A stretch of DNA of 35,213 nucleotides from Nemertoderma westbladi. Taxonomy: Eukaryota; Animalia; Xenacoelomorpha. Positions within the stretch are counted from its first letter, which is position 1, and each line of letters starts with the position of its first letter. Positions 1-29,012 of the stretch are shown in pieces. The stretch is taken from the NCBI GenBank assembly GCA_032718475.1, contig JAUCBJ010001565.1, positions 1 to 35,213 on the forward strand, read 5' to 3'. The translations under genes and the position numbers were made by a program. The notes beneath the pieces were generated by a model, which was given only the letters and a program-made list of their open reading frames with translations, was not told the origin of the DNA and did not search any database.

Positions 1-1075
1 CTTTAATGGGTAACTCACCTTCCCTCCAGCTCCTAGAAGGCCCCTGAGTCATCCTTTAACGGGTAACTCACCTTCCCTCCAGCTCCTAGAAGGCCCCTGC
101 ATCATCCTTTAATGGGTAACTCACCTTCCCTCCAGCTCCTAGAAGACCCCTGAGTCATCCTTTAACGGGTAACTCACCTTCCCTCCAGCTCCTAGAAGGC
201 CCCTGCATCATCCTTTAATGGGTAACTCACCTTCCCTCCAGCTCCTAGAAGGCCCCTGCATCATCCTTTAATGGGTAACTCACCTTCCCTCCAGCTCCTA
301 GAAGGCCCCTGAGTCATCCTTTAACGGGTAACTCACCTTCCCTCCAGCTCCTGGAAGGCCCCTGCGTCATCCTTTAACGGGTAACTCACCTTCCCTCCAG
401 CTCCTAGAAGGCCCCTGCATCATCCTTTAATGGGTAACTCACCTTCCCTCCAGCTCCTAGAAGGCCCCTGAGTCATCCTTTAACGGGTAACTCACCTTCC
501 CTCCAGCTCCTAGAAGGCCCCTGCATCATCCTTTAACGGGTAACTCACCTTCCCTCCAGCTCCTAGAAGGCCCTTGCGTCATCCTTTCACGGGTAACTCA
601 CCTTCCCTCCAGCTCCTAGAAGGCCCTTGCGTCATTCTTTAACGGGTAACTCACCTTCCCTCCAGCTCCTAGAAGGCCCTTGCGTCATCCTATAATGGGT
701 GACTCACCTTCCCTCCAGCTCCTTGAAGGCCCCTGCGTCATCCTTTAACGGGTAACTCACCTTCCCTCCAGCTCCTAGAAGGCCCTTGCGTCATCCTTTC
801 ACGGGTAACTCACCTTCCCTCCAGCTCCTAGAAGGCCCTTGCGTCATTCTTTAACGGGTAACTCACCTTCCCTCCAGCTCCTGGAAGGCCCCTGCGTTAT
901 CCTTTAATGGGTAACTCACCTTCCCTCCAGCTCCTAGAAGGCCCTTGCGTCATCCTTTAACGGGTAACTCACCTTCCCTCCAGCTCCTATAAGGCCCTTG
1001 CGTCATCCTTTAACGGGTAACTCACCTTCCCTCCAGCTCCTGGAAGGCCCCTGCGTCATCCTTTAACGGGTAACT
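1..1075 (-). repeat. 53-bp tandem array made of the last 50 nt of the L1-family TM exon plus intron bases GTG; every unit contains a GAAG|GTGAGT donor; runs off the left window edge
   Basis: ACTCACCT (reverse complement of AG|GTGAGT) recurs at 13, 66, ... 1020 with a 53-bp period (20 copies). The last copy (1023-1075) contains the coding exon end. Confidence 0.97.
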
Positions 1076-1225
1076 TTCGGCATCATTGGGCCGATATTTG
1101 TTCTCTCGATCCATCAGAGGATATTTACCGCCGCGGTTTCGCCGCACCAAACAAATTATTAGAATTATGAGGATCAAAAGTACCAGAATAATGATGAGAG
1201 CGATAAACCATGTTTGACCACCTTC
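1026..1225 (-). CDS. Nrg: Exon of an L1CAM/neuroglian-family cell adhesion molecule: transmembrane helix and start of the cytoplasmic tail
   Basis: EGGQTWFIALIIILVLLILIILIICLVRRNRGGKYPLMDRE...KDDAGAFQELEG matches the L1-family WFI-(TM)-C..KRNRGGKY signature. Acceptor TTTTTTTCTTTCAG ends at 1226; donor GTGAGT starts at 1025. Exon starts in phase 0. Confidence 0.88.
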
Positions 1226-2445
1226 CTGAAAGAAAAAAATGGTTAACATAATAATTATAATTACTTACTAAATTCATCTAACTAATAGTGCAAAACCTTA
1301 CTGGTAGATTGTAGGTGTGTACAAGATGAAGTGGGCCTTCGTGCGGCACGTGATATAAACATAATATTGGGCCTACAGACAAAAAAAAAACAAGAAAACT
1401 TATCCTAATCTCTGATAACAGCAGATGGTTTAAAATCTCAGAAAATAACTCAGTCTGCAGTCTAAAATTATGTCAGGTATCAATAATCAGGTCGAAAGGA
1501 TTATAGGGATAGGTGGAATTTGTGACAATACCTAAAAACGGTGACAACAGTCAGCCACAGTCAAAAAATATGGTTGACCATTATCAAAAATGGCCATAAA
1601 CAATGTGAATAATAGTAGATCGCAGTGCTACAAGTAATTCTGCCAAGATTCAGCTCCACATATCGCCGGCAAGTCATTGGAAAACAGCCAAATGTCTGGT
1701 GACAACACACAAAATGTACGGACAACACTCTAAATTATGAATTCAGTATTCTGCAATACAGGTAGAGGTAGATTAATACTTTAATACACCAGGCCAGACA
1801 CCATTCTGCCTGTCATTTTTTTTATACTGAATGTAACTCGCTGGTTCGCAAGCTTAGCCTACGGCTGTTGCTGGTACGGGTAGGCGTATCACTATTTAAA
1901 CCTTGGCCTATAATTAATACCACCGATGAATGCCGGAATGTTTATTAGCCTTCAAACATTCCGCGACAGATCGACCAACAGACGGAAGGACGGACAAGTG
2001 TTGAAAGAAATCCATAAACTACACGAAGTGGGGCCTTCGCGCAGCACGTGACTTAAATTTAATTTAAGTACTAATTCGAAAGTATTACTGTATTAGGATA
2101 TTATTGGAATGTGGTGTGGAATGTTAGGAATGTATATGAATCAGCAGTCCGGTAGAGGTTTACATATTTAAAAGAACTGCCGAAATATAAGTTATATGAG
2201 TATTATTTGTTATGATTTCTACCATTATATTCTTCCACGCAAAGTTCCTAGTCCTATAGGTCCAATCAAAACATTCTGTATATTGCCAATGGTTCAACGT
2301 AATCAAAGAGACGACGCTAGACACGCACGCAGCCAATCCCAGTGAAAAATGCACGCAAATAAGTAGTCATAAGTGATAATTCTAGAAAGGCTTTTCTGCG
2401 AATGTAGGCTATTGTGTAATTCATTTCAGTACCGGTCTGCCTAAC

Positions 2446-2690
2446 TGTCTGCACCAGGTGTCTGCACCAGGTGTCTGCACCAGGTGTCTGCACCAGGTGT
2501 CTGCACTAGGTGTCTGCACCAGGTGTCTGCACCAGGTGTCTGCACCCACCAGGTGTCTGCACCAGGTGTCTGCACCAGGTGTCTGCACCAGGTGTCTGCA
2601 CCAGGTGTCTGCACCAGGTGTCTGCACCAGGTGTCTGCACCAGTTGTCTGCACCAGGTGTCTGCACCAGGTGTCTGCACCAGGTGTCTGC
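2446..2690. repeat. 13-bp minisatellite (TGTCTGCACCAGG)n, about 19 copies
   Basis: Directly visible; it accounts for the overlapping repetitive ORFs at 2421-2753. Confidence 0.97.
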
Positions 2691-2819
2691 TTAACGTTTA
2701 CACCCCAATTCCGCTTGGTTTATATCTTGATTATCAATAAAATAGTAACGTGAAATATTTATGGAGCGTATATTTGAGAATGTTGAAATAATGCGTTTAG
2801 TAGTGTGACCAGCGTCTTG

Positions 2820-3541
2820 AATTTCCGCTTACCTCTAGCGGCAGACTGGAGAAATGCAGATCGACCACCTTCCTCAGAAAGACGCAGCATGTGCTCTAGT
2901 ACATATGCCAATATTCACTTTAAATAAATTAATATCAAGGAATTGGGGACAGTTATACATTTCGCCCTCTAGCGGCAGACTGGAGGACTCCAGACCGTTT
3001 ACTGCCCACCAAAGACTCAGGCCGACTTCTACTACATATCTGCTACGTTTCAGCTTGAACGGATCATAAATAACGAGATGGGAGAAAGATTTCACTTTCA
3101 AACATTTCGCCCTCTAGCGGCAGACTGAAGAACTGCACACGGATTAGCCTTCAATTCAATTCAATTCAATTCCTTCTTTCAAAGTCACAGCTAATGGTCT
3201 AGTACATATCTGCCAAATTTCAGCATAAATGGATTAAAAGCAAAGAAATGGGAGGACATTTAACGTTTAGACATGTGGCCCTCTAGCAGGAGACTATTGC
3301 TCTGATGGTGTCTGAAAGTCTCTCAAACGTCTCAACTTTAGCTCATATTGATACCTACAAATTTTCAACTTGGCAGCTTTAAATCCGACAAAGTTATTAG
3401 CATGTCAAAATCGTAACGACGACGACGACGACGACAACGACGACGACGACGACGACAACTATTTGCATAAATTGACCCACCCCCTAACAGTGTCAATTCG
3501 CTAAGGCTCCGCCAACTTCGTGGCTCGCCCCACATAATAAT
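2820..3541 (-). mobile_element. Probable Helentron-associated (HINE/DINE-1-like) non-autonomous element nested in the MULE
   Basis: On the minus strand: TATTATTA start, short GC-rich inverted repeat (~3505-3532), (GTC)n microsatellite (3416-3458), then four degenerate ~135-170-bp subrepeats marked by CCTCTAGCGGCAGACT (near 2832, 2966, 3111, 3281). Confidence 0.55.
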
Positions 3542-4979
3542 ACTGTAGGCCTATCTGGTAAGCAGTATTGCTGTATTGCAGAATACTGAATTCATAATTT
3601 AGAGTGTTGTCCGTACATTTTGTGTGTTGTCAACAGACATTTGACTGTTTTCCTACGACTTGCCGGCGATATGCGGAACTGAAACTTGGCAGAATTACTT
3701 TTAGGGCTGCGATCTACTATTATTCACATTGTTTATGGCCATTTTTGATAATGGTCAACCATTTTTTTTACTGTGGCTGACTGTTGTCACCGTTTTTAGG
3801 TATTGTCACAAATTCCACCTATCCGGATTATAGGGCAACAACAATAATAGATAGAAATAATAAATAGCAGAAGGTTTTTCATTTCAGACATTTCGCTCTC
3901 TTAGCGGTAGACTGTAGAACTGCAGATGGTTTAGCGTCCCCACGAAGACGAAGCAAGGGGTCTAGTAAATATCTTCCACAGATTATCCTTTACAGATTAT
4001 AAACTCCGAACCGGCAGGTTGGGCTCCTATTGGGCCGAGTTGGTGTCGCGAATTCCATCATATGGTGGATGTTGAGAAGCCAGAGACATTCGATCCTGTT
4101 CCGATTCGTTCAGTTGCTGCCAATGTTCCTGCCATTGGGGCTCGGTTTGAATCCACTGCGTGTTGAGTCCACTGGATGCCAGCTAGTGTTGGGGGACTTT
4201 GGATATGGCTGTATGTCATATAAGGATGCTGGAGGTTGTTCAGCTGGCTCTGGGCTGACACTATTGCTTAGACAGGGGCCTATCATATAAAGCAGTACCA
4301 AGTACAGCTTGCAAGTTGGCTTATTACTAGGCCAGTAGCGAAAAGCAGCGGGTAGAAAGTAGCCATCAGTAGCGAGTGAACAGTGGGAAAGTAGTGAGTA
4401 AATTGTTAAAACAGAAAGTAACTTAAGAAAATGTTTCATGTCGATTTTTTTGTAACTCGCGCATTTTATTAATTTACTTTCTACTTTCCTCTACAACATG
4501 TCCTGCAAAGCATATCCCAAATATACAGTTGCTGTTTAAATTGAGTAAATGAACCCCCCTAATTTTTCTTTAAATTATAATGAGATTGCATGAAATTGAA
4601 ACGGAGATAGTTTGACAACCCGACTTTTTTCTGGATTATTCCAAATTCCTATCTTCGCAAAAAATATCAGAATCAGAGCTGGAAAAGTATTTTTTTTCTT
4701 CAAATGTTAAGGTCAAGTTAAAAGTATCATTTTATTAAATCCAAAAAGCAAATGTACCGGTGGTTCAGTGCAGTACTGCAATATTAAATGTCTTGTATTA
4801 TAGTGTCTTAATTCAGTGCCTTCCCCCGATCCCTAATCTATATTTGATCGCATGAAATTTGAAACAGAGATAGTTTCACCTCCCTCCTCCTTCGCGGGTG
4901 AGCAAGAATTTATATTTTAGTTTTCAATCTTAAGCTAAAAGCGTTTAAATAGGTTTCTCCTTCGATACTGCACCAGTTC

Positions 4980-5171
4980 GGCACTGGTTCGATATGGGTC
5001 ACCCATTTTTTTTATATAAATATAAATCATTTATAGGTACTTTATAAGAGTTTTTGCACATTAATAAATATAATTAATATATATAATATTTATGTATTAT
5101 ATATATATTATATATTTTATAGGTGAGTTTGTAAAATTTCCAAATTGGGTGACCCATATCGAACCAGTGCC
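4980..5171. mobile_element. 192-bp MITE with ~26-bp TIRs and an 8-bp TSD
   Basis: GGCACTGGTTCGATATGGGTCACCCA ... TGGGTGACCCATATCGAACCAGTGCC; ACCAGTTC at 4972-4979 and 5172-5179; very AT-rich interior. Confidence 0.88.
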
Positions 5172-5653
5172 ACCAGTTCCACGTCCACCGCAGTCATTAT
5201 TCATTTATTCAACCTCATAACTAGATAAGTCATTTATCAGATAGCAAGCCAGCATAGCCAACTATATACAAAGCCATATAGCCAGGATGAATAATTTAAT
5301 TTTAATTGTAATTCTAGTGAAAAAATGAAAGATGTAAGTATTAATCTGAAATTAAAAAGTAAAATACTTTTCAAGCTCTGCTCTGAATTCAATCGTTTGG
5401 AAAATTATCGTCAGTCGATATAGCACTAATCGTACCACAGGATCTATCCATTGTTCTTGTATCTCTGGTGGATGGGTTGTATTGCGATGGGTAAGATTGG
5501 CTACAGATGGATGGGTAGTATTGAGAGGAATCCAGATCTGTAAATATTCCGAATTTCAATATCACTATATTCACTATAAATTAAATAAATAACTTATTTA
5601 ATTAATATTTAATTAATTTATATTGGTAGACAGACCCCTTGTCAGCCGCATAA

Positions 5654-5832
5654 GGCAGCGTTCACACTACCGAGTCAAAGTCAAAGTCAAAAGACAAAAT
5701 GTAAATCACAAAACATGAAATTTATTTTTTTCTAGAATCCCCTGATGTATTATTATTTATTATTGCTAGCTAACTATATTTATTTTATTTTGACTTTTAC
5801 TTTGACTTTGACTCGGTAGTGTGAACGCGGCC
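5654..5832. mobile_element. PIF/Harbinger (Tourist-like) MITE
   Basis: TIRs GGC(A/C)GCGTTCACACTACCGAGTCAAAGTCAAAGT at both ends; TAA TSD at 5651-5653 and 5833-5835. Confidence 0.85.
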
Positions 5833-6054
5833 TAACAGTTGTTTCAATAAAAAAAAATAGGAAATATGTTCGAAATCGAAAGTTGAATGGTTTTCCTATT
5901 TGTAAGACTTTACTATCAAACCATTCAAGAACACCATAAAAATAAAGAATAAAAATGCGATATTCAAGAATACGGAAACTATAATACCGCCGTTAACAGC
6001 TAATACTCATCGCAATCAATTATGTCCGTTTAAACGGAAAGTATTACTACAGTA

Positions 6055-7850
6055 CACCATGATCCGTAATACAGTGTCATTTTCTGATGACACGGGCCCC
6101 CCAGATTTTTCTACAAATCTTTACCATATTGCTTTAACTTTGAAACACAACTAGTTCCACTCACCGTCGTTGACCCCATGAAGCCGGAATTTTCGATTTT
6201 GCCCTTTAACTATTTTTTATAAGCGTTTTAAAAAAGTGTTTTTTTGCGAAATCGCACCCTCCGTGACGTGGCCATTCTCCACATTACCTCCGTGACGTGG
6301 CCATTCTCCACATTAGTCGTAATTTTATTCTATTCTAATTAATTTTATAGTTTCACCTCCTTCCTCCTCCGTGGGTGAGCCAGAATTTTTATTTTTGCTT
6401 TCATTCTTTAGCTACAAGCGTTTAAAAAAAGTGTCTCCGTCGATATTGCTTGCACCAGTTACACCGCAGTTATTCTTCAAACATTTAGTGATTTGTTGGT
6501 ACTAGACAGCTGACCGTGCAAGGATTCCAAATATGTAAAAACATTTGAATTTTGTTGGGAAATAGCTGAGATGAGGGCATTTTAATTTCGCATGTATTAG
6601 CTTCCACTGCAGGCCATTTATTCTATTAAATAAATACACAATGTTCTAGAACATTTTGATTATGTATGAATATCCATATACTAGTATTATCATGTAGGCA
6701 TTGCATTGTTGCCAAACTACTGAGATAAACAAAATGTTCTAGAACATTGTGTATTTATTAAGTAGAATAAATGGCCTGCAGCGGAAGCAAATACATGCAA
6801 AATTCGAACGCCAATAACTCAGCTATTTCCCAACCAAATTCACATATTTTTACATATTTGGAATCCTTGCACGGTCAGCTTTCTACTAGTACCAACAAAT
6901 CACTAAATGTTTCAAGAATAACTGCGGTGTAACTGGTGCAATATCGACGAGGACACTTTTTTTTAAACGCTTGTAGCTAAAGAATGAAAGCAAAAATAAA
7001 AATTCTGGCTCACCCAGCAAGGAGGAGGACACTATATTCCACTGAATAACGACACTATATTCCAGGACATGGTGTATAAATTTCGTTGAGAAACATCAGT
7101 CTTTGAAAGCCTATATCTCAGCTGTTTCTCAACGAAATTCATAATATTGTGTTACATAATTCGAATCCTTGTAACGCAATCTTTCTAATGATATGAAAAG
7201 AATACGACTAATGTGAAGAATGGCCGCGACATGGAGGTGCGATGTCGCAAGACACTTTTTTAAAACGCTTATAAAAATATTTTTTAGGCTATCAAAGATA
7301 GCAATAATTATTGTTCGGTGTAGGCAATTTTTTCTATTTAATAAATACACAATATTCTAGAACGTGTTATTTATTTTATGAGTTGGTAGGCAACAGCGGT
7401 TTTCATATCCAATATATCTATTGCGTAGCTATTCATACATAAACAAAATGTTCCAGAACATCGTGTATTTATTAAATAGAATAAATGGCCTTCAGCAAAG
7501 GATAATTCTTGCAATCTTTGAACGCCTGTATCTCAGCTATTTCTCAACGAAATTCAGATATTGTTACATATTTTTGGACTCCTTGCAACGCAAGCTTTTT
7601 AATGATATGGAATAATTACGACTAATGTGAAGAATAGCCACGATGCGGAGGGTGCAATTTCGCAAAACACTTTTTTAAAACTCTTATTAAAATTTAAAGG
7701 CAAAATTGAAAATTCCGGCTTCATGGGGTCAACGACGGTGAGTTGAACTATTTGTGTTTCAAACTTCAAACAATGTGATAAAGATTTGTATAAAAATCTG
7801 GGGGGGGACCCGTGTCATCAGAAAATGACACTATATTACGGTTCATGGTG
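6055..7850. mobile_element. Non-autonomous long-TIR element with TA TSD (Tc1/mariner-like), containing an internal foldback
   Basis: TA|CACCATGATCCGTAATACAGTGTCATTTTCTGATGACACGG ... CCGTGTCATCAGAAAATGACACTATATTACGGTTCATGGTG|TA. Inverted similarity extends >200 bp. A second inverted pair lies at ~6360-6660 / ~6725-7030. Confidence 0.8.
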
Positions 7851-8229
7851 TAATAGGAATAGGTAGGTACTAATTAATAGGTAGGTAGGGGGTTCCGATG
7901 GGGGTGTTGGTTTGGGGGGGCGAAGGCCGCCTCTCACATTCCCAACCATCCTCGCTACGTCACTATGCATCTGAATAAGATAAATAAGCAAATGAACATG
8001 GACGAGTAATCAGTAGGCAGAGTTATGTGCAGAAGTAGGCCTACTGGTATAATATAAGCTATTGCAAAGGTAGACGAGTCTATACAGGAATATGCCACGC
8101 CATAAGTCATTTTTTTGTAATAAAAACTAGTAAAATAAATTAAATGTACATAAATTTGTAAATAAAATGGTATTAATAAATACTAGCAATAATTTGCCAT
8201 TGGTAATAAAAACTAGTAATAACTATTTA

Positions 8230-9475
8230 TTCCAAAATTGTAACATTACTCAACGCCGTTAGTATTAACAGCGAGTTGTTATTTAGCACTTTACAACTTT
8301 AGAGGACATTACAGCATTGTATTGGCCTGTACATTTAGTATTGTATTTGGTGTTAATGTCCCCTTAGTGGACATTACTTAACGCCGTCATGGGTTACCAC
8401 GTAAACAATCGGTGGAAATTTGCCTGACAGCCAGATAGGCCTACTGCATTACCTAGCGGTAGGCGGGGTATAGCTATTAATAACCAGTAGGACCTAGCTA
8501 TATTATTATAACATGGCTCCAAACGCCACCATAAATATAACCTAACTTATTTATAACATAATTTATGTCATTTTTACATTTATTTATACAGCAACTAATA
8601 TAATTTGTGCACTTTCTATCACTTATAATGTATATGCACAATCATTTCGTAATGTTAACATTTTGGAAAACTACATACATACTTGTTGCAAAGTACTTTA
8701 CAGTGTTCTGTTCCTCGTGGCTTTATTTTCACTCACTCACTAACGTTCGTTCGTGTAACAAAGCCACTCGGATCATCACACTGTAAAGTGCTACTTTACA
8801 CACAAGTATGTAAATAGTTATTACATACCTTTGTTGTAAAGTAGCAGTTACAGTAGTAACAGTAGTTGTTACAGTGTGATGATGTGTAAAGTAGCACTTT
8901 ACAGTGTGCTGATCCGAGTGGCTTTGATACACTAACTAACGTTAGTGAGTGAGTGAAAATAAAGCCACGAGTATCAGAACACTGTAAAGTACTTTGCAAC
9001 AAGTATGTATGTAGTTTTATTCCAAAATGTTAACATTACGAAATGATTGTATATATATATTATAAGTGAAAGAAACTACACAAATTATATTAGTTGCTGT
9101 ATAAAGAAATTAAAAAATGACATAAATTATGTTATAAATAAGTTAGCTTATATTTATGGTGGCGTTTGGAGCCATGTTAATAGTTTATAGCTACTGGTTA
9201 TTAATTTATACCGGTAGATAATGCAGTAGGCCTGGCTGTCAGGCAATTAATTATGAATGCCACCTATTGTTTACGTGGTAACCAATGACGCCGTAACTTT
9301 ACATCTCACCGTCATTGGTTACCACATAAACAACGGACATTACAACACTCAATACAATACTAAATGTACAGGCAAATACAATGCTGTAATGTCCTCTAAA
9401 GTTGTAAAGTGCTAAATAACAACACGCTGTTAATACTAACGGCGTTGAGTAATGTTTCAATTTGAAAATTTGGAA
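8230..9475. repeat. Large imperfect palindrome (foldback) with ~570-bp arms and ~80-bp spacer
   Basis: 8242 AACATTACTCAACGCCGTTAGTATTAACAGCG... pairs with ...CGCTGTTAATACTAACGGCGTTGAGTAATGTT 9456. The inner ends are near 8804 and 8884. Confidence 0.9.
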
Positions 9476-9892
9476 AATAAAATTGTATTAATAAATACTA
9501 GCAATAATTAATATTTATATACAATGTAAATAGGACATATGATAATGCTGTCCATAGCAAAAAATTCACTTATTCACAATTCACTTATTATTAATAATTA
9601 ATATTCTCACTCCAACAGCATATCTGCAAACCTAATATTATCAATTAAGAAAATTATTATTTATTTAAATTTATGCAATTAATTCTTTTGTTAGAAAGCA
9701 AATGGCATTAACTAGCAAATACGACACAGCAAATTGTTAGTTTTAATTTAATGAATTCAGCAAAAGCAAGCAAACAGTCGGCCGAAGCCGGAGGCGACCC
9801 GAAGGCTCCTCCTTCGATAGCTGCTACCCGAAGAGTCTCTAGTCTTCATTTAATCGACCCATATGGATGGATGGAAAGGCTGAATGGTCGAT

Positions 9893-9952
9893 GACTGGTC
9901 TCGAACCTACAACCAATAGATTGTAAGACCGGAGCCCAACCAACTAAGCTCC
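9893..9952 (-). mobile_element. Degenerate tRNA-like segment, probably a tRNA-derived SINE head
   Basis: Minus strand GGAGCTTAGTTGGTTGGGCTCCGGTCTTACAATCTATTGGTTGTAGGTTCGAGACCAG has A-box-like and B-box-like (GGTTCGAGAC) motifs at tRNA spacing, but no convincing acceptor stem. Confidence 0.45.
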
Positions 9953-9953
9953 A

Positions 9954-10912: not shown

Positions 10913-11144
10913 AGTTGTTGTTGTTGGCGGTGTTAATATCCAGTTAGCATTTAGTTTTATAAGGCTTCCTACAGCAACGTGTCAAAGTTGGAAAAGCGTG
11001 GGACTGAGAATCTCTAGGTACCGAGTTCAATCCCACCTTTCCGGTGAATTATTTTGGTAGTAAGATTGGTAAGCCATTCAAGGAGACAGTTCTTACGTTA
11101 GCGGTTAGTAGACGCGGACCTTTGCGCGATTTCGCGTTGTTTTT
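9954..11144 (+). mobile_element. HINE/Helentron-type non-autonomous element whose 5' terminus is tandemly amplified
   Basis: 5' subterminal AGGTCCGCGT, (GTT)4 at ~10914-10925, matching inverted ACGCGGACCT at 11112-11121, hairpin CGCGATTTCGCG at 11125-11136, then a T-tract. Confidence 0.6.
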
Positions 11145-11240: not shown

Positions 11241-11426
11241 CTCAGAGACTCTCTTTTCTGATGTTCCTCCGGTTTTGAATGTAGCAATCTCCCCAGCAGC
11301 GGTGTTTTCCCTACCATTTTCATCCTTACTGTACGCGGTGACACGGGTATCGTAATCCGCTCCAGCTTCCAATCCCTCAATCATAGACTGTTGCTCCTCG
11401 TGCCACATTGGGACAGGCTCCGAAGT
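11241..11426 (-). CDS. Nrg: Exon of the same L1/neuroglian-family gene: C-terminal half of the membrane-proximal fibronectin type III domain
   Basis: TSEPVPMWHEEQQSMIEGLEAGADYDTRVTAYSKDENGRENTAAGEIATFKTGGTSEKRVSE has the FN3 I.GL..G..Y..RV.A motif. Acceptor TTTCTATTGCTAG, donor GAG|GTCTGT. 186 nt, phase 0-0, joins in frame to the exon at 1225. Confidence 0.78.
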
Positions 11427-13100: not shown

Positions 13101-13107
13101 GAGTTTG

Positions 13108-16977: not shown

Positions 16978-17099
16978 CTGTGGCCTCGATAGACCCCCCA
17001 CCAGTATATGTTGTTATCGCCGGTGTTGAACCCGTTATGTTTACCAATTTATTTCCTTATTGGCGCCGTGACTCGGAAATAGCAACGGCCAACCGATTG
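16978..17099 (+). CDS. SVIL: Supervillin-like exon, end of the last gelsolin-like repeat
   Basis: VASIDPPPVYVVIAGVEPVMFTNLFPYWRRDSEIATANRL resembles supervillin Y.I.AGLEP..FTN.FP.W. Acceptor TATTTTATTTTCAG, donor TTG|GTGAGT; ends in phase 0. Confidence 0.85.
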
Positions 17100-17344
17100 G
17101 TGAGTTGTGACTGACTACACACATAAATGAGTACCAGTTAAATTACTTGGGAGCAAAACATGGGATAAGAGTAGCGCCCACCCCTATTTTCGGGTAGCAG
17201 ATAGGAGTAGCGCCAACCCCAACCCCCGGGTAGCAACTATCGAAAGATGAGCCTTCGGGTCGCCTCCGGTTTCGGCCGACTGTTTGTTTGCTTGTATCGG
17301 AATTCCATTAATAATTGTATTAATATTATAAACATTTTATAAAG

Positions 17345-17509
17345 GAATACAAATTGGAACCAGATGAATTTCCCGTGCTCAAGGCAACCGATGTGTTGCG
17401 GACTTTAACAGAAATCCGTCTAACTTACCAACAGATCCTAATCCATGACCTTCCGGAGGGAGTTGACCCTCACAAGTTGGAGACCTACCTGGACGATACA
17501 GAGTTCCAG
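17345..17509 (+). CDS. SVIL: Supervillin-like exon, linker and N-terminal part of the villin headpiece
   Basis: EYKLEPDEFPVLKATDVLRTLTEIRLTYQQILIHDLPEGVDPHKLETYLDDTEFQ contains the LPEGVDP.KLE.YL motif. Acceptor TTTTATAAAG, donor CAG|GTTAGT; 165 nt, phase 0-0. Confidence 0.9.
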
Positions 17510-20500
17510 GTTAGTCGGAGACCTACCTGGACGATACAGAGTTCTAGGTTAGTTGGAGACCTACCTAGACGATACAGAGTTCCAGGTTAGTTGGAGACCT
17601 ACCTGGACGATACAGAGTTCCAGGTTAGTTGGAGACCTACCTGGACGATACAGAGGGTCAGGTTAGTTGGGAAACCTACCTGGACGATACAGAGTTCCAG
17701 GTTAGTTGGAGACCTACCTGGACGATACAGAGTTCCAGGTTAGTTGGAGGCCTACCTGGACGATACAGAGTTCCAGGTTAGTTGGAGACCTACCTGGACG
17801 ATACAGAGTTCCAGGTTAGTTGGAGACCTACCTGGACGATACAGAGTTCCAGGTTAGTTGGAGACCTACCTGGACGATACAGAGTTCCAGGTTAGTTGGA
17901 GACCTACCTGGACGATACAGAGTTCCACGTTAGTTGGAGACCTACCTGGACGATACAGAGTTCCAGGTTAGTTGGAGACCTACCTGGACGATACAGAGTT
18001 CCAGGTTAGTTGGAGACCTACCTGGACGATACAGAGTTCCAGGTTAGTTGGAGACCTACCTGGACGATACAGAGTTCCAGGTTAGTTGGAGACCTACCTG
18101 GACGATACAGAGTTCCAGGTTAGTTGGGGACCTACCTGGACGATACAGAGTTCCAGCAGGTTAGTTGGAGACCTGGACGATACAGAGTTCCAGGTTAGTT
18201 GGAGACCTACCTGGACGATACAGAGTTCCAGGTTAGTTGGAGACCTACCTGGACGATACAGAGTTCTAGGTTAGTTGGAGACCTGTACGATACAGAGTTC
18301 CAGGTTAGTTGGAGACCTACCTGGACGATACAGAGTTCCAGGTTAGTTGGAGACCTACCTGGACGATACAGAGTTCCAGGTTAGTTGGAGACCTACCGGG
18401 ACGATACAGAGTTCCATGTTAGTTGGAGACCTACCTGGACGATACAGAGTTCCAGGTTAGTTGGAGACCTACCGGGACGATACAGAGTTCCAGGTTAGTT
18501 GGAGACCTACCTGGACGATACAGAGTTCCAGGTTAGTTGGGGACCTACCTGGACGATACAGAGTTCCAGAAGGTTAGTTGGAGACCTGGACGATACAGAG
18601 TTCCAGGTTAGTTGGAGACCTACCTGGACGATACAGAGTTCCAGGTTAGTTGGAGACCTACCTGGACGATACAGAGTTCCAGGTTAGTTGGAGACCTACC
18701 TGGACGATACAGAGTTCCAGGTTAGTTGGAGACCTACCTGGACGATACAGAGTTCCAGGTTAGTTGGAGACCTACCTGGACGATTCAGAGTTCCAGGTTA
18801 GTTGGAGACCTACCTGGACGATACAGAGTTCCAGGTTAGTTGGAGACCTACCTGGACGATACAGAGTTCCAGGTTAGTTGGAGACCTACCTGGACGATAC
18901 AGAGTTCCAGGTTAGTTGGAGACCTACCTGGACGATACAGAGTTCTAGGTTAGTTGGAGACCTACCTGGACGATACAGAGTTCCAGGTTAGTTGGAGACC
19001 TACCTGGACGATACAGAGTTCCAGGTTAGTTGGAGACCTACCTGGACGATACAGAGTTCCAGGTTAGTTGGAGACCTACCTGGACGATACAGAGTTCCAG
19101 GTTAGTTGGAGACCTACCTGGACGATACAGAGTTCCAGGTTAGTTGGAGACCTACCTGGACGATACAGAGTTCCAGGTTAGTTGGGGACCTACCTGGACG
19201 ATACAGAGTTCCAGCAGGTTAGTTGGAGACCTGGACGATACAGAGTTCCAGGTTAGTTGGAGACCTACCTGGACGATACAGAGTTCCAGGTTAGTTGGAG
19301 ACCTACCTGGACGATACAGAGTTCTAGGTTAGTTGGAGACCTGGACGATACAGAGTTCCAGGTTAGTCGGAGACCTACCTGGACGATACAGAGTTCTAGG
19401 TTAGTTGGAGACCTACCTGGACGATACAGAGTTCCAGGTTAGTTGGAGACCTACCTGGACGATACAGAGTTCCAGGTTAGTTGGAGACCTACCTGGACGA
19501 TACAGAGGGTCAGGTTAGTTGGGGACCTACCTGGACGATACAAAGTTCCAGGTTAGTTGGAGACCTACCTGGACGATACAGAGTTCCAGGTTAGTTGGAG
19601 GCCTACCTGGACGATACAGAGTTCCAGGTTAGTTGGAGACCTACCTGGACGATATAGAGTTCCAGGTTAGTTGGAGACCTACCTGGACGATACAGAGTTC
19701 CAGGTTAGTTGGAGACCTACCTGGACGATACAGAGTTCCAGGTTAGTTGGAGACCTACCTGGACGATACAGAGTTCCAGGTTAGTTGGAGACCTACCTGG
19801 ACGATACAGAGTTCCACGTTAGTTGGAGACCTACCTGGACGATACAGAGTTCCAAGTTAGTTGGAGACCTACCTGGACGATACAGAGTTCCAGGTTAGTT
19901 GGAGACCTACCTGGACGATACAGAGTTCCAGGTTAGTTGGAGACCTACCTGGACGATACAGAGTTCCAGGTTAGTTGGAGACCTACCTGGACGATACAGA
20001 GTTCCAGGTTAGTTGGGGACCTACCTGGACGATACAGAGTTCCAGCAGGTTAGTTGGAGACCTGGACGATACAGAGTTCCAGGTTAGTTGGAGACCTACC
20101 TGGACGATACAGAGTTCCAGGTTAGTTGGAGACCTACCTGGACGATACAGAGTTCTAGGTTAGTTGGAGACCTGTACGATACAGAGTTCCAGGTTAGTTG
20201 GAGACCTACCTGGACGATACAGAGTTCCAGGTTAGTTGGAGACCTACCTGGACGATACAGAGTTCCAGGTTAGTTGGAGACCTACCGGGACGATACAGAG
20301 TTCCATGTTAGTTGGAGACCTACCTGGACGATACAGAGTTCCAGGTTAGTTGGAGACCTACCGGGACGATACAGAGTTCCAGGTTAGTTGGAGACCTACC
20401 TGGACGATACAGAGTTCCAGGTTAGTTGGGGACCTACCTGGACGATACAGAGTTCCAGAAGGTTAGTTGGAGACCTGGACGATACAGAGTTCCAGGTTAG

Positions 20501-23500
20501 TTGGAGACCTACCTGGACGATACAGAGTTCCAGGTTAGTTGGAGACCTACCTGGACGATACAGAGTTCCAGGTTAGTTGGAGACCTACCTGGACGATACA
20601 GAGTTCCAGGTTAGTTGGAGACCTACCTGGACGATACAGAGTTCCAGGTTAGTTGGAGACCTACCTGGACGATACAGAGTTCCAGGTTAGTTGGAGACCT
20701 ACCTGGACGATACAGAGTTCCAGGTTAGTTGGAGACCTACCTGGACGATACAGAGTTCCAGGTTAGTTGGAGACCTACCTGGACGATACAGAGTTCTAGG
20801 TTAGTTGGAGACCTACCTGGACGATACAGAGTTCCAGGTTAGTTGGAGACCTACCTGGACGATACAGAGTTCCAGGTTAGTTGGGGACCTACCTGGACGA
20901 TACAGAGTTCCAGGTTAGTTGGAGACCTACCTGGACGATACAGAGTTCCAGGTTAGTTGGAGACCTACCGGGACGATACAGAGTTCCAGGTTAGTTGGAG
21001 ACCTACCTGGACGATACAGAGTTCCAGGTTAGTCGGAGACCTACCTGGACGATACAGAGTTCCAGGTTAGTTGGAGACCTACCTGGACGATACAGAGTTC
21101 CAGGTTAGTTGGAGACCTACCTGGACGATACAGAGTTCCAGGTTAGTTGGAGACCTACCTGGACGATACAGAGTTCCAGGTTAGTTGGAGACCTACCTGG
21201 ACGATACAGAGTTCCAGGTTAGTTGGAGACCTACCTGGACGATACAGAGTTCCAGGTTAGTTGGGGACCTACCTGGACGATACAGAGTTCCAGCAGGTTA
21301 GTTGGAGACCTGGACGATACAGAGTTCCAGGTTAGTTGGAGACCTACCTGGACGATACAGAGTTCCAGGTTAGTTGGAGACCTACCTGGACGATACAGAG
21401 TTCTAGGTTAGTTGGAGACCTGGACGATACAGAGTTCCAGGTTAGTCGGAGACCTACCTGGACGATACAGAGTTCTAGGTTAGTTGGAGACCTACCTGGA
21501 CGATACAGAGTTCCAGGTTAGTTGGAGACCTACCTGGACGATACAGAGTTCCAGGTTAGTTGGAGACCTACCTGGACGATACAGAGGGTCAGGTTAGTTG
21601 GGGACCTACCTGGACGATACAGAGTTCCAGGTTAGTTGGAGACCTACCTGGACGATACAGAGTTCCAGGTTAGTTGGAGACCTACCTGGACGATACAGAG
21701 TTCCAGGTTAGTTGGAGACCTACCTGGACGATACAGAGTTCTAGGTTAGTTGGAGACCTACCTGGACGATACAGAGTTCCAGGTTAGTTGGAGACCTACC
21801 TGGACGATACAGAGTTCCAGGTTAGTTGGAGACCTACCTGGACGATACAGAGTTCCAGGTTAGTTGGAGACCTACCTGGACGATACAGAGTTCTAGGTTA
21901 GTTGGAGACCTGTACGATACAGAGTTCCAGGTTAGTTGGAGACCTACCTGGACGATACAGAGTTCTAGGTTAGTTGGAGACCTGGACGATACAGAGTTCC
22001 AGGTTAGTTGGAGACCTACCTGGACGATACAGAGTTCCAGGTTAGTTGGAGACCTACCTGGATGATACAGAGTTCCAGGTTAGTTGGAGACCTACCTGGA
22101 CGATACAGAGTTCCAGGTTAGTTGGAGACCTACCTGGACGATACAGAGTTCCAGGTTAGTTGGAGACCTACCTGGACGATACAGAGTTCCAGGTTAGTTG
22201 GGGACCTACCTGGACGATACAGAGTTCCAGCAGGTTAGTTGGAGACCTGGACGATACAGAGTTCCAGGTTAGTTGGAGACCTACCTGGACGATACAGAGT
22301 TCCAGGTTAGTTGGAGACCTACCTGGACGATACAGAGTTCTAGGTTAGTTGGAGACCTGTACGATACAGAGTTCCAGGTTAGTTGGAGACCTACCTGGAC
22401 GATACAGAGTTCCAGGTTAGTTGGAGACCTACCTGGACGATACAGAGTTCCAGGTTAGTTGGAGACCTACCGGGACGATACAGAGTTCCATGTTAGTTGG
22501 AGACCTACCTGGACGATACAGAGTTCCAGGTTAGTTGGAGACCTACCTGGACGATACAGAGTTCCAGGTTAGTTGGGGACCTACCTGGACGATACAGAGT
22601 TCCAGAAGGTTAGTTGGAGACCTGGACGATGCAGAGTTCCAGGTTAGTTGGAGACCTACCGGGACGATACAGAGTTCCAGGTTAGTTGGAGACCTACCTG
22701 GACGATACAGAGTTCCAGGTTAGTCGGAGACCTACCTGGACGATACAGAGTTCCAGGTTAGTTGGAGACCTACCTGGACGATACAGAGTTCCAGGTTAGT
22801 TGGAGACCTACCTGGACGATACAGAGTTCCAGGTTAGTTGGAGACCTACCTGGACGATACAGAGTTCCAGGTTAGTTGGAGACCTACCTGGACGATACAG
22901 AGTTCCAGGTTAGTTGGAGACCTACCTGGACGATACAGAGTTCCAGGTTAGTTGGAGACCTACCTGGACGATACAGAGTTCTAGGTTAGTTGGAGACCTA
23001 CCTGGACGATACAGAGTTCCAGGTTAGTTGGAGACCTACCTGGACGATACAGAGTTCCAGGATAGTTGGAGACCTACCTGGACGATACAGAGTTCCAGGT
23101 TAGTTGGAGACCTACCTGGACGATACAGAGTTCCAGGTTAGTTGGAGACCTACCTGGACGATACAGAGTTCCAGAAGGTTAGTTGGAGACCTGGACGATA
23201 CAGAGTTCCAGGTTAGTTGGAGACCTACCTGGACGATACAGAGTTCCAGGTTAGTTGGAGACCTACCTGGACGATACAGAGTTCCAGGTTAGTTGGAGAC
23301 CTACCTGGACGATACAGAGTTCCAGGTTAGTTGGAGACCTACCTGGACGATACAGAGTTCCAGGTTAGTTGGAGACCTACCTGGACGATTCAGAGTTCCA
23401 GGTTAGTTGGAGACCTACCTGGACGATACAGAGTTCCAGGTTAGTTGGAGACCTACCTGGACGATACAGAGTTCCAGGTTAGTTGGAGACCTACCTGGAC

Positions 23501-26500
23501 GATACAGAGTTCCAGGTTAGTTGGAGACCTACCTGGACGATACAGAGTTCTAGGTTAGTTGGAGACCTACCTGGACGATACAGAGTTCCAGGTTAGTTGG
23601 AGACCTACCTGGACGATACAGAGTTCCAGGTTAGTTGGAGACCTACCTGGACGATACAGAGTTCTAGGTTAGTTGGAGACCTGGACGATACAGAGTTCCA
23701 GGTTAGTCGGAGACCTACCTGGACGATACAGAGTTCCAGGTTAGTTGGAGACCTACCTGGACGATACAGAGTTCCAGGTTAGTTGGAGACCTACCTGGAC
23801 GATACAGAGTTCCAGGTTAGTTGGAGACCTACCTGGACGATACAGAGTTCCAGGTTAGTTGGGGACCTACCTGGACGATACAGAGTTCCAGCAGGTTAGT
23901 TGGAGACCTGGACGATACAGAGTTCCAGGTTAGTTGGAGACCTACCTGGACGATACAGAGTTCCAGGTTAGTTGGAGACCTACCTGGACGATACAGAGTT
24001 CTAGGTTAGTTGGAGACCTGTACGATACAGAGTTCCAGGTTAGTTGGAGACCTACCTGGACGATACAGAGTTCCAGGTTAGTTGGAGACCTACCTGGACG
24101 ATACAGAGTTCCAGGTTAGTTGGAGACCTACCTGGACGATACAGAGTTCCAGGTTAGTTGGAGACCTACCTGGACGATACAGAGTTCCAGGTTAGTTGGA
24201 GACCTACCTGGACGATACAGAGTTCTAGGTTAGTTGGAGACCTGTACGATACAGAGTTCCAGGTTAGTTGGAGACCTACCTGGACGATACAGAGTTCCAG
24301 GTTAGTTGGAGACCTACCTGGACGATACAGAGTTCCAGGTTAGTTGGAGACCTACCTGGACGATACAGAGTTCTAGGTTAGTTGGAGACATACCTGGACG
24401 ATACAGAGTTCCAGGTTAGTTGGAGACCTACCTGGACGATACAGAGTTCCAGGTTAGTTGGAGACCTACCTGCACGATACAGAGTTCCAGGTTAGTTGGA
24501 GACCTACCGGGACGATACAGAGTTCCATGTTAGTTGGAGACCTACCTGGACGATACAGAGTTCCAGGTTAGTTGGAGACCTACCTGGACGATACAGAGTT
24601 CCAGGTTAGTTGGGGACCTACCTGGACGATACAGAGTTCCAGAAGGTTAGTTGGAGACCTGGACGATACAGAGTTCCAGGTTAGTTGGAGACCTACCGGG
24701 ACGATACAGAGTTCCAGGTTAGTTGGAGACCTACCTGGACGATACAGAGTTCCAGGTTAGTTGGAGACCTACCTGGACGATACAGAGTTCCATGTTAGTT
24801 GGAGACCTACCTGGACGATACAGAGTTCCAGGTTAGTTGGAGACCTACCTGGACGATACAGAGTTCCAGGTTAGTTGGAGACTTACCTGGACGATACAGA
24901 GTTCCAGGTTAGTTGGAGACCTACCTGGACGATACAGAGTTCCAGGTTAGTTGGAGACCTACCTGGACGATACAGAGTTCCAGGTTAGTTGGAGACCTAC
25001 CTGGGCGATACAGAGTTCCAGGTTAGTTGGAGACCTACCTGGACGATACAGAGTTCAAGCAGGTTAGTTGGAGACCTACCTGGGCGATACAGAGTTCCAG
25101 GTTAGTTGGAGACCTACCTGGACGATACAGAGTTCCAGAAGGTTAGTTGGAGACCTACCGGGACGATACAGAGTTCCAGGTTAGTTGGAGACCTACCGGG
25201 ACGATACAGAGTTCCATGTTAGTTGGAGACCAACCTGGACGATACAGAGTTCCAGGTTAGTTGGAGACCTACCTGTACGATACAGAGTTCCAGGTTAGTT
25301 GGAGACCTACCTGGACGATACAGAGTTCCAGGTTAGTTGGAGACCTGGACGATACAGAGTTCCAGGTTAGTTGGAGACCTACCTGGACGATATAGAGTTC
25401 CAGGTTAGTTGGAGACCTACCTGGACGATACAGAGTTCCAGGTTAGTTGGAGACCTACCTGGACGATACAGAGTTCCAGGTTAGTTGGAGACCTACCTGG
25501 ACGATACAGAGTTCCAGGTTAGTTGGAGACCTACCTGGACGATACAGAGTTCCAGGTTAGTTGGAGACCTACCTGGACGATACAGAGTTCCAGGTTAGTT
25601 GGAGACCTACCTGGACGATACAGAGTTCCAGGTTAGTTGGAGACCTACCTGGATGATACAGAGTTCCAGGTTAGTTGGAGACCTACCTGGACGATACAGA
25701 GTTCCAGGTTAGTTGGAGACCTACCTGGACGATACAGAGTTCCAGGTTAGTTGGGGACCTACCTGGACGATACAGAGTTCCAGCAGGTTAGTTGGAGACC
25801 TGGACGATACAGAGTTCCAGGTTAGTTGGAGACCTACCTGGACGATACAGAGTTCCAGGTTAGTTGGAGACCTACCTGGACGATACAGAGTTCTAGGTTA
25901 GTTGGAGACCTGTACGATACAGAGTTCCAGGTTAGTTGGAGGCCTACCTGGACGATACAGAGTTCCAGGTTAGTTGGAGACCTACCTGGACGATATAGAG
26001 TTCCAGGTTAGTTGGAGACCTACCTGGACGATACAGAGTTCCAGGTTAGTTGGAGACCTACCTGGACGATACAGAGTTCCAGGTTAGTTGGAGACCTACC
26101 TGGACGATACAGAGTTCCAGGTTAGTTGGAGACCTACCTGGACGATACAGAGTTCCAGGTTAGTTGGAGACCTACCTGGACGATACAGAGTTCCAGGTTA
26201 GTTGGAGACCTACCTGGACGATACAGAGTTCCAGGTTAGTTGGAGACCTACCTGGACGATACAGAGTTCCAGGTTAGTTGGAGACCTACCTGGACGATAC
26301 AGAGTTCCAGGTTAGTTGGAGACCTACCTGGACGATACAGAGTTCCAGGTTAGTTGGGGACCTACCTGGACGATACAGAGTTCCAGCAGGTTAGTTGGAG
26401 ACCTGGACGATACAGAGTTCCAGGTTAGTTGGAGACCTACCTGGACGATACAGAGTTCCAGGTTAGTTGGAGACCTACCTGGACGATACAGAGTTCTAGG

Positions 26501-29012
26501 TTAGTTGGAGACCTGTACGATACAGAGTTCCAGGTTAGTTGGAGGCCTACCTGGACGATACAGAGTTCCAGGTTAGTTGGAGACCTACCTGGACGATATA
26601 GAGTTCCAGGTTAGTTGGAGACCTACCTGGACGATACAGAGTTCCAGGTTAGTTGGAGACCTACCTGGACGATACAGAGTTCCAGGTTAGTTGGAGACCT
26701 ACCTGGACGATACAGAGTTCCAGGTTAGTTGGAGACCTACCTGGACGATACAGAGTTCCAGGTTAGTTGGAGACCTACCTGGACGATACAGAGTTCCAGG
26801 TTAGTTGGAGACCTACCTGGACGATACAGAGTTCCAGGTTAGTTGGAGACCTACCTGGACGATACAGAGTTCCAGGTTAGTTGGAGACCTACCTGGACGA
26901 TACAGAGTTCTAGGTTAGTTGGAGACCTGGACGATACAGAGTTCCAGGTTAGTTGGAGACCTACCTGGACGATACAGAGTTCCAGGTTAGTTGGAGACCT
27001 ACCTGGACGATACAGAGTTCCAGGTTAGTTAGAGACCTACCGGGACGATACAGAGTTCCATGTTAGTTGGAGACCTACCTGGACGATACAGAGTTCCAGG
27101 TTAGTTGGAGACCTACCTGGACGATACAGAGTTCCAGGTTAGTTGGGGACCTACCTGGACGATACAGAGTTCCAGAAGGTTAGTTGGAGACCTGGACGAT
27201 ACAGAGTTCCAGGTTAGTTGGAGACCTACCGGGACGATACAGAGTTCCAGGTTAGTTGGAGACCTACCTGGACGATACAGAGTTCCAGGTTAGTCGGAGA
27301 CCTACCTGGACGATACAGAGTTCCAGGTTAGTTGGAGACCTACCTGGACGATACAGAGTTCCAGGTTAGTTGGAGACCTACCTGGACGATACAGAGTTCC
27401 AGGTTAGTTGGAGACCTACCTGGACGATACAGAGTTCCAGGTTAGTTGGAGACCTACCTGGACGATACAGAGTTCCAGGTTAGTTGGAGACCTACCTGGA
27501 CGATACAGAGTTCCAGGTTAGTTGGAGACCTACCTGGACGATACAGAGTTCTAGGTTAGTTGTAGACCTACCTGGACGATACAGAGTTCCAGGTTAGTTG
27601 GAGACCTACCTGGACGATACAGAGTTCCAGGTTAGTTGGAGACCTACCTGGACGATACAGAGTTCCAGGTTAGTTGGAGACCTACCTGGACGATACAGAG
27701 TTCCAGGTTAGTTGGAGACCTACCTGGACGATACAGAGTTCCAGAAGGTTAGTTGGAGACCTGGACGATACAGAGTTCCAGGTTAGTTGGAGACCTACCT
27801 GGACGATACAGAGTTCCAGGTTAGTTGGAGACCTACCTGGACGATACAGAGTTCCAGGTTAGTTGGAGACCTACCTGGACGATACAGAGTTCCAGGTTAG
27901 TTGGAGACCTACCTGGACGATACAGAGTTCCAGGTTAGTTGGAGACCTACCTGGACGATTCAGAGTTCCAGGTTAGTTGGAGACCTACCTGGACGATACA
28001 GAGTTCCAGGTTAGTTGGAGACCTACCTGGACGATACAGAGTTCCAGGTTAGTTGGAGACCTACCTGGACGATACAGAGTTCCAGGTTAGTTGGAGACCT
28101 ACCTGGACGATACAGAGTTCTAGGTTAGTTGGAGACCTACCTGGACGATACAGAGTTCCAGGTTAGTTGGAGACCTACCTGGACGATACAGAGTTCCAGG
28201 TTAGTTGGAGACCTACCTGGACGATACAGAGTTCTAGGTTAGTTGGAGACCTGGACGATACAGAGTTCCAGGTTAGTCGGAGACCTACCTGGACGATACA
28301 GAGTTCCAGGTTAGTTGGAGACCTACCTGGACGATACAGAGTTCCAGGTTAGTTGGGTACCTACCTGGACGATACAGAGTTCCAGAAGGTTAGTTGGAGA
28401 CCTGGACGATACAGAGTTCCAGGTTAGTTGGAGACCTACCGGGACGATACAGAGTTCCAGGTTAGTTGGAGACCTACCTGGACGATACAGAGTTCCAGGT
28501 TAGTTGGAGACCTACCTGGACGATACAGAGTTCCAGGTTAGTTGGAGACCTACCTGGACGATACAGAGTTCCAGAAGGTTAGTTGGAGACCTACCGGGAC
28601 GATACAGAGTTCCATGTTAGTTGGAGACCTACCTGGACGATACAGAGTTCCATGTTAGTTGGAGACCTACCTGGACGATACAGAGTTCCATGTTAGTTGG
28701 AGACCTACCTGGACGATACAGAGTTCCAGGTTAGTTGGAGACCTACCTGGACGATACAGAGTTCCAGGTTAGTTGGAGACCTACCGGGACGATACAGAGT
28801 TCCATGTTAGTTGGAGACCTACCTGGACGATACAGAGTTCCATGTTAGTTGGAGACCTACCTGGACGATACAGAGTTCCAGGTTAGTTGGAGACCTACCT
28901 GGACGATACAGAGTTCCAGGTTAGTTGGAGACCTACCTGGACGATACAGAGTTCCAGGTTAGTTGGAGACCAACCTGGACGATACAGAGTTCCAGGTTAG
29001 TTGGGGACCTAC
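17475..29012 (+). repeat. 38-bp satellite (AGTTGGAGACCTACCTGGACGATACAGAGTTCCAGGTT)n, about 300 copies, made of the last 35 nt of the exon plus intron bases GTT
   Basis: 11,538 bp of near-identical units; the first unit is the coding exon end; nearly all units carry a YAG|GTTAGT site. Confidence 0.98.

What the first reader, a model, noticed from the sequence alone, without database searches (positions are those of the whole stretch)
1..29012. Two unrelated genes carry splice-donor satellites built by the same rule
Seen: array 1-1075 (L1-family gene, minus) has a unit of the last 50 exon nt + GTG. Array 17475-29012 (supervillin-like gene, plus) has a unit of the last 35 exon nt + GTT. In both, the unit starts at an exonic A|AGTT and ends at intron position +3, so the AGT that begins the next unit supplies donor positions +4..+6 (GTG-AGT, GTT-AGT). 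Each copy therefore rebuilds a complete U1-type donor with its native exon context. The two units share no other sequence. Known: single-locus VNTRs spanning a donor exist (e.g. the 31-bp VNTR of human CBS). Inference: two such arrays among five visible exons suggests a genome-wide process that seeds tandem expansion at exon-intron junctions using AGT microhomology, possibly linked to transcription or splicing.
Basis: partly seen in the sequence, partly recalled or inferred. Interest (0 to 1): 0.9.

Follow-up and report, generated by a model that had tools for sequence, protein, structure and literature searches.

The report
Splice-donor "mirage" minisatellites in two genes
In two neighbouring animal genes the end of an exon plus its splice signal is repeated head-to-tail into the next intron (about 20 or more and 305 times), the one spliced RNA-like data set uses only the first signal, and this is a repeat type already named "mirage" in lancelets, likely a tolerated by-product rather than a new splicing-driven process.

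Summary
Both arrays are real and as described: 50 exon nt + GTG (20 units, running off the window) and 35 exon nt + GTT (305 units). DNA contigs of two other samples hold both repeat units; spliced contigs of run X4 use only the first donor in each gene. The supervillin intron is ancestral, not made by the repeat. The class is known: amphioxus "mirages" (several genes), human F7, CBS, LMNB2, PDGF, ABCA7; this scan has met it in many other genomes. New details: a third junction duplication (38 nt) at the acceptor of the same intron, and both far ends. Neither far end shows the AGT that the microhomology idea needs: array 1 stops 28 nt into a unit, and array 2's last unit is split by a 100-nt insert and followed by TTA. 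Local excess over chance is real (P about 0.0006-0.001) but the window was picked for it. The shared +3/AGT register has a chance of 0.5-10% depending on intron length. No genome was held, so genome-wide enrichment is untested. Best reading: ordinary short duplication, filtered by selection for an intact first donor, then array growth.

The parts
1..1075 (-). Array 1: 53-nt donor-spanning minisatellite (last 50 exon nt + GTG), 20 full units in the window, continues beyond base 1; far end is a 28-nt partial unit followed by AT-rich sequence
   Evidence: far end in contigs of X1, X2, X3; mean pairwise difference of intronic copies 5.5%
1026..1225 (-). Exon of L1-family cell adhesion gene (transmembrane helix and start of the cytoplasmic tail); donor AG|GTGAGT, phase 2
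   Evidence: translation; best hit P0001 carries PF13882 and PF00041 (E 1.7e-7); both ends spliced in X4
11241..11426 (-). Upstream exon of the L1-family gene (fibronectin type III-like); donor GTCTGT, no array
   Evidence: fn3 E 0.01, below Pfam cut-off; joined to 1225 in X4; no exon copy in flanking introns
16978..17097 (+). Supervillin-like exon; donor GTGAGT, no array
   Evidence: joint 17098-17344 GT..AG in X4
17344..17509 (+). Supervillin-like exon with first half of the headpiece; donor AG|GTTAGT, phase 0, ancestral intron position
   Evidence: best PDB hit supervillin 2k6m E 6.5e-4
17475..29012 (+). Array 2: 38-nt donor-spanning minisatellite (last 35 exon nt + GTT), 305 units plus a 14-nt partial unit, with higher-order blocks
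   Evidence: mean pairwise difference 2.0%; units present in X1, X2, X3
29013..29112 (+). 100-nt insert that appears to split the terminal unit between unit positions 14 and 15; holds a decayed piece of the high-copy dispersed repeat seen at 17143-17293
   Evidence: the insertion reading is inference
29113..29136 (+). Second half of the terminal unit (unit positions 15-38, 21 of 24 identical), with the donor G replaced by T and followed by TTA, not AGT
   Evidence: alignment score 32, 0 of 200 shuffles reach it
29136..29212 (+). Two-copy 38-nt duplication of the acceptor (27 intron + 11 exon nt); the upstream AG (exon start 29163) would give a stop after five codons
29201..29287 (+). Last coding exon, villin headpiece C-terminus; this distal acceptor is the one joined to 17509
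   Evidence: PF02209 E 9e-9, above cut-off; loose end of X4

Best explanation
Both arrays are mirage-type minisatellites that copy an exon end and its donor into the intron, likely born as ordinary short tandem duplications, likely kept because the first donor stayed complete, and likely lengthened later by unequal exchange. Steps: (1) shown: unit anatomy, presence in other samples, first-donor use in X4. (2) Inferred: a 38- or 53-nt duplication arises by slippage or flap annealing, with or without a 3-4 nt microhomology. (3) Inferred from frame arithmetic: a duplicate wholly inside the exon shifts the frame and is purged; one that ends inside the donor survives only if the unit start rebuilds +4..+6, so an exonic AGT start is the shortest intron overlap that survives. 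(4) From F7 experiments: the most upstream of identical donors is chosen, so the copies are silent. (5) Inferred: block duplications enlarge the array, and the far end decays. The shared register then reflects a survival filter on exon-rich units plus chance, not a seeding signal.
For: First donor used in both genes, no X4 cover on intronic copies. Any later donor destroys the protein end: stop codon directly behind donor 1 in the L1-like gene; donors 2-6 of array 2 all lose the headpiece end. No extra conservation of copied donors: array 2 has 5 of 25 substitution alleles in the 9 donor positions, 5.9 expected; array 1 has 0 of 12 variable sites there, P 0.08. Higher-order blocks (e.g. 21 units repeated 50 units later) and decayed ends match minisatellite turnover as described for mirages (PMC3087553). 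The window is rich in other tandem repeats (18 TRF rows). Microhomology marks most tandem duplications generally (over 50% of duplications, nearly 80% of repeats in human). CBS has a similar exon-heavy unit, 24 exon + 7 intron nt.
Against: Survival alone does not favour +3 over any longer intron overlap: among donor-preserving microhomology duplications only 5.3% and 9.5% have this register (joint 0.5%), rising to 1.4% and 10% if the overlap is limited to 25 or 10 nt. Three of nine junctions carry duplications against 0.19 expected, more than neutral placement gives. Both arrayed exons hold the only AAGTT among the four donor-bearing exons. RNA evidence is one run's contigs, which drop rare forms.
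Confidence: 0.65

Rival explanations
1. A mutational bias seeds duplications at exon 3' ends: breaks, flaps or RNA-DNA hybrids concentrate at donors or on exon nucleosomes, and the donor's own AGT anneals to an exonic AGT, giving a genome-wide excess of +3/AGT units.
For: 2 of 4 donors and 1 of 5 acceptors duplicated (P about 0.001); identical register in two genes (0.5-1.4% under the long-intron nulls); 2 of the 3 donors with AGT at +4..+6 carry arrays, the 1 without does not; authors call the origin of mirages unclear.
Against: Window chosen post hoc. Neither far end keeps AGT behind the last donor as a clean microhomology. The acceptor duplicate has another junction. Known units vary: F7 4 exon + 33 intron nt, ABCA7 starts at the GT. 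Unchecked notes of this scan report only modest or twofold enrichment in other genomes.
Confidence: 0.22
2. The duplication junction created the AGT donor: the old donor was weaker (GTT followed by TTA in the supervillin-like gene), the exonic AGT supplied a better +4..+6, and the old donor then decayed.
For: The terminal unit of array 2 reads in register to +3 with G replaced by T and continues TTA, not AGT.
Against: That would make the old intron only 29 nt long, so sequence was probably deleted there and the old +4..+6 is unknown; array 1's far end is uninformative.
Confidence: 0.08
3. The arrays are functional decoy donors or U1 sponges that tune splicing or expression.
For: 304 of 305 and 20 of 20 copies keep GT..AGT; ABCA7 VNTR length affects splicing in humans.
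Against: Copies are young or homogenised (2-5.5% apart) and donor positions are not more conserved than the rest; no downstream use in X4 contigs.
Confidence: 0.03
4. Assembly artefact.
For: No long read checked the 11.5-kb length; the two genes face away from each other with only their 3' exons present, which may mark a misjoin between 11.4 and 17 kb.
Against: Structured variants and blocks; repeat units and the far end of array 1 in contigs from two samples of two studies. A misjoin between the genes would not create either array.
Confidence: 0.02

Closest known systems
Amphioxus 'mirage' minisatellites (Adh3, globins BflGb6/BflGb9, troponin C, PGBD5); PMC3087553 section 16 read whole plus passages, PMC3902484 passages; original paper PMC117041 not held
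   Same: Tandem units spanning an exon-intron boundary, at donors and acceptors, in several unrelated genes of one genome; normal splicing kept; ends less homogenised; units of 10-160 nt.
   Different: Far more copies here (305 against 2-7 in the globin and PGBD5 cases); I found no statement of a shared +3/AGT register in the passages read; organism here is not identified.
Human donor-spanning VNTRs: F7 IVS7 (37 nt), CBS IVS13 (31 nt), LMNB2 (100 nt), PDGF (81 nt), 6-16; PMC1557585 part 1 of 6 read, PMC2630376 passages
   Same: First unit spans the donor; identical pseudo-donors follow; most upstream donor chosen (F7, LMNB2, PDGF). CBS unit is exon-heavy (24 + 7 nt).
   Different: F7 unit is intron-heavy (4 + 33 nt); CBS and 6-16 also use two pseudo-sites, not seen here at contig level.
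Human ABCA7 intron 18 VNTR; PMC5954066 passages
   Same: Donor-containing unit, alleles up to 10,678 nt (about 427 units), the scale of array 2.
   Different: Unit starts at the GT and holds no described exon part; second donor is used at a detectable level; length affects splicing.
CBS 844ins68 duplicated intron 7/exon 8 junction; PMC2630376 passage
   Same: Duplicated 3' junction where the distal copy is the one used, as at 29163/29201.
   Different: 68 nt, human polymorphism; here it is not known whether the X4 animal carries the duplication.
Microhomology-mediated tandem duplication; PMC13167724 passages, bioRxiv 10.64898/2026.02.28.708716 passages
   Same: Generic origin of tandem repeats from 4-25 nt microhomology arms; depleted from coding sequence.
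   Different: No occurrence of 'splice' in either text; the arms are not preserved at the far ends here.

Membership tests
Mirage minisatellite | Tandem unit spans an exon-intron boundary of the host gene | tested here: met
   boundaries confirmed by spliced contigs
Mirage minisatellite | Most copies keep splice signals | tested here: met
   20 of 20; 304 of 305
Mirage minisatellite | Regular splicing is not disturbed | tested here: met
   one contig per gene in run X4 uses the first donor; rare forms would be missed
Mirage minisatellite | Concerted evolution inside, decayed boundary units | tested here: met
   blocks; terminal pieces 7 differences in 72 nt and 3 in 24 nt
Mirage minisatellite | Length polymorphism or somatic instability | tested here: inconclusive
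   contig depth on array 2 relative to flank differs between X1 and X2/X3, but the tool states depth is no copy number
Microhomology-mediated tandem duplication | Same short arm at both ends of the array | tested here: inconclusive
   exon-side arm AGT(T) present; far ends altered: 28-nt partial unit, split unit followed by TTA
Intron gain by tandem duplication (Rogers model) | Intron absent in relatives and made wholly of duplicated exon sequence | tested here: not met
   7 of 11 homologous hits run into unrelated sequence with V right after the same position; unit contains GTT not found at the start of the next exon; L1 intron position not tested
Genome-wide junction-seeding process | Excess of junction-anchored arrays and of AGT unit starts across the genome | not testable with these tools
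   no genome held; no other notes on this genome

The most novel reading that the evidence does not exclude
Mirage arrays have a preferred register: a mutational process tied to exon 3' ends (exon nucleosomes and Okazaki flaps, or donor-bound RNA-DNA hybrids) seeds duplications that close on the donor's own AGT, so that whole introns in this animal are rebuilt from their two splice junctions (here 11,503 of 11,691 nt are donor copies and most of the rest is a split copy and an acceptor copy). That would give the first mechanism for mirages and a route for rapid intron growth.
Probability: 0.18. Interest if true: 0.7.

Novelty: new member of a known kind. Interest (0 to 1): 0.27.

Why it matters
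As it stands it is a clean, large example of a known repeat type: 305 near-identical donors of which only the first is seen in use, a natural test of first-donor selection at a scale far beyond F7. The open point is why such arrays sit on exon edges; the origin of mirages is called unclear in print (PMC3087553). If the +3/AGT register held genome-wide it would tie tandem-repeat birth to gene structure and make that question testable. Practical note: such arrays mislead gene prediction and short-read assembly.

Tried and rejected
No whole genome was held and no other window of this genome had notes, so the genome-wide test was not run. No RNA holder was listed; X4 behaved as spliced when laid. 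Only 4 of 6 listed runs were laid; X2 and X3 are one sample; X1 could be the window's source and is then not independent. DNA runs show no cover at 17302-17460, which the tool says proves nothing. A word-index search with the supervillin exon found nothing; the full search gave 13 hits, of which I read 11 (P0003 and P0008 left out as partial matches) and aligned 9. The atlas did not answer. Intron gain was rejected for the supervillin intron. Selection on copied donors not seen. Hidden decayed exon copies at other junctions: of 9 exon-intron pairs only the piece at 29113 beat all shuffles; exon 16978 against its upstream intron was weak (7 of 200). The 30 letters behind array 1's far end end in AG and hold a branch-like motif, but the tool cuts at 30 letters, so I do not call it the acceptor. 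An alternative reading of 29079-29133 as an older, longer exon copy rests on one 9-mer and is not excluded. No tRNA or Rfam match for the suspected SINE head. Papers not held: PMC117041, PMC1783408. PMC10078293 passages gave nothing on junction-spanning arrays. Eight paper searches (listings only unless named above) found no genome-wide census of junction-spanning arrays or of their register; the library lacks most subscription papers, and no supplements were opened (mirage alignments in the supplements of PMC3087553 and PMC3902484 may show registers).

Full report
Observation. The repeat finder gives array 1 at 1-1075 (period 53) and array 2 at 17475-29012 (period 38). Array 1 begins 50 nt before the end of a 200-nt minus-strand exon (1225-1026); each of 20 full units is 50 exon nt plus GTG and all 20 give AG|GTGAGT with the next unit's start. 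Array 2 splits into 305 units of 35 kinds; 171 equal the exon copy, 304 give GTTAGT and 289 AG|GTTAGT. Both begin at an exonic A|AGTT. The units share only a 7-mer, at chance level (330 of 3000 shuffles).

Genes. The minus-strand exons encode a fibronectin-III-like piece (fn3 E 0.01, below cut-off) and a transmembrane helix with RRNRGGKY; the best of 2 hits carries PF13882 and PF00041 (I recall PF13882 as the L1-family cytoplasmic domain). The plus-strand exons encode a supervillin-like end: best PDB hit supervillin, villin headpiece in the last exon (E 9e-9). The organism is an animal; I did not identify it further.

Are the arrays real? Array 2 has recurring blocks, for example 21 units repeated 50 units later, which sequencing error would not make. 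Six runs were listed and four laid. Contigs of X1 (sample S1) and X2/X3 (sample S2) lie on the repeat units of both arrays at depths above the flanks. Lengths remain unconfirmed.

Splicing. Run X4 gives one spliced contig per gene. It joins 17098 to 17344, leaves the window at the first donor (17509) and continues with the sequence at 29201. In the L1-like gene it joins 11241 to 1225 and leaves at 1026. It has no cover on intronic copies. Contigs drop rare forms, so minor use is not excluded. Reading through donor 1 in the L1-like gene meets a stop at once, and donors 2-6 of array 2 all lose the headpiece end, so no useful isoform is predicted.

Far ends, which test the microhomology idea. A simple duplication closing on the donor's AGT leaves the last donor followed by AGT and then unrelated intron. 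Array 1's far end lies outside the window but appears in X1, X2 and X3: the repeat stops 28 nt into a unit and AT-rich sequence follows. Array 2 stops 14 nt into a unit at 29012; 100 nt later unit positions 15-38 resume (21 of 24 identical; 0 of 200 shuffles reach the score), with the donor G changed to T and TTA behind it. The exact fit of the two halves suggests an insertion into the last unit (inference). So neither end preserves an AGT arm. This does not refute microhomology, since the ends have been remodelled, but it removes the direct evidence, and array 2 allows the opposite reading that the duplication created the AGT donor.

A third duplication. Directly behind lies a two-copy 38-nt repeat of the acceptor, 27 intron plus 11 exon nt. 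The upstream copy would give a stop after five codons; X4 uses the downstream one. Of the 11,691-nt intron, 11,503 nt are donor array and 188 nt are insert, split unit and acceptor copies. The intron itself is old: 7 of 11 homologous hits read (of 13 found) run into unrelated sequence with a valine right after the same residue, as expected of gene calls reading into a GT intron; two continue into the headpiece, and two are ambiguous.

Chance. With arrays collapsed the window is 20,368 nt; 2 of 5 arrays on 4 donors has P 0.0006 (0.001 without the two retroelements); 3 of 13 repeat seeds on 9 junctions has P 0.001. These figures ignore that the window was flagged for this pattern among very many. 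For the register, simulated donor-preserving microhomology duplications (period 20-70, arm of 3 nt or more) have the +3/AGT form in 5.3% and 9.5% of cases, jointly 0.5%; if only 25 or 10 intron nt are available, 1.4% or 10%. The coincidence is therefore notable but not compelling from two cases. Donor positions in the copies are not better conserved than the rest (5 of 25 alleles against 5.9 expected; 0 of 12 sites, P 0.08). The three other arrays avoid splice sites; the 53-nt one at 11891 adjoins a repeat also found inverted near 31.4 kb, so it likely travels with a mobile element.

Mechanism. Most likely a short duplication of an exon-rich segment (units are 58% and 50% GC against 31% in introns) arose by the ordinary route; copies inside the exon would shift the frame, and the shortest overlap that leaves a full donor is one whose unit start supplies +4..+6. 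First-donor choice, shown by mutagenesis for F7 (PMC1557585), makes later copies silent, and block duplication enlarges the array. The origin, filter and growth steps are inferred. A real mutational bias toward exon ends remains the main rival (0.22).

What is known. Tandem repeats spanning exon-intron boundaries were named mirages in amphioxus Adh3 and occur in globin, troponin C and PGBD5 genes, at both donors and acceptors, without disturbing splicing; their origin is called unclear (PMC3087553; PMC3902484). Human cases are F7, CBS, LMNB2, PDGF, 6-16 and ABCA7, whose alleles reach about 427 units. CBS is exon-heavy like these; F7 is not. Microhomology-mediated duplication is a general source of tandem repeats. 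This scan's unchecked notes list the same class in sharks, a ray, abalone, sea urchins, annelids and an octopod; they gave me leads to F7, CBS and the short-intron argument, and are not evidence. My eight searches found no genome-wide census or register analysis.

Verdict. Observation confirmed; interpretation partly supported. The arrays are new members of the mirage class. The only part that may be new is a preferred +3/AGT register (probability about 0.18), which needs the whole genome. Interest 0.27.

Noticed in passing
window 1026-11426 (-) and 16978-29287 (+): The two genes face away from each other yet only their 3' exons are present. The supervillin-like upstream exon seen in X4 is not in the window and 0 of 79 other open frames hit Pfam. 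Either the genes interleave on opposite strands over more than 35 kb or there is a misjoin or rearrangement between 11.4 and 17 kb.
   Followed up: partly
window 13361-16027 (-): Single 888-aa open frame with reverse transcriptase and a C-terminus that I recall as a restriction-like endonuclease; a non-LTR retrotransposon, apparently 5'-truncated, with a short Thr/Ser-rich repeat inside.
   Followed up: partly
window 32092-35213 (+): LTR retrotransposon (RT, integrase, DUF7041) with two LTRs of about 209 nt, 204 identical; its frames are broken by stops, shifts and deletions.
   Followed up: partly
window 17143-17293, 9764-9830, 29040-29075: Very high-copy dispersed repeat (contig depth some 10,000-fold above flank) with an internal 36-nt tandem unit; the copy at 9764-9949 has a head that looks tRNA-like by eye (no Rfam or ARAGORN match) and abuts the 40-nt array 9949-10916.
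   Followed up: partly
window 11717-13106 and about 31330-31490: The 53-nt array at 11891 adjoins a GGATCC-rich element also present inverted near 31.4 kb, suggesting a mobile element with internal tandem repeats.
   Followed up: partly
window 1500-9500: Many nested long inverted repeats (arms 100-200 nt, 88-96% complementary), consistent with nested MITE-like elements filling the 10-kb L1-like intron.
   Followed up: no
window 1-1022 (-): 16 of 19 intronic copies of array 1 share one C-to-T change that the exon copy lacks: the array has homogenised apart from the exon, unlike array 2 whose commonest unit equals the exon.
   Followed up: partly
window 16030-17220: Run X1 holds several intron haplotypes at different depths: a pooled sample, high heterozygosity or paralogous copies.
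   Followed up: no
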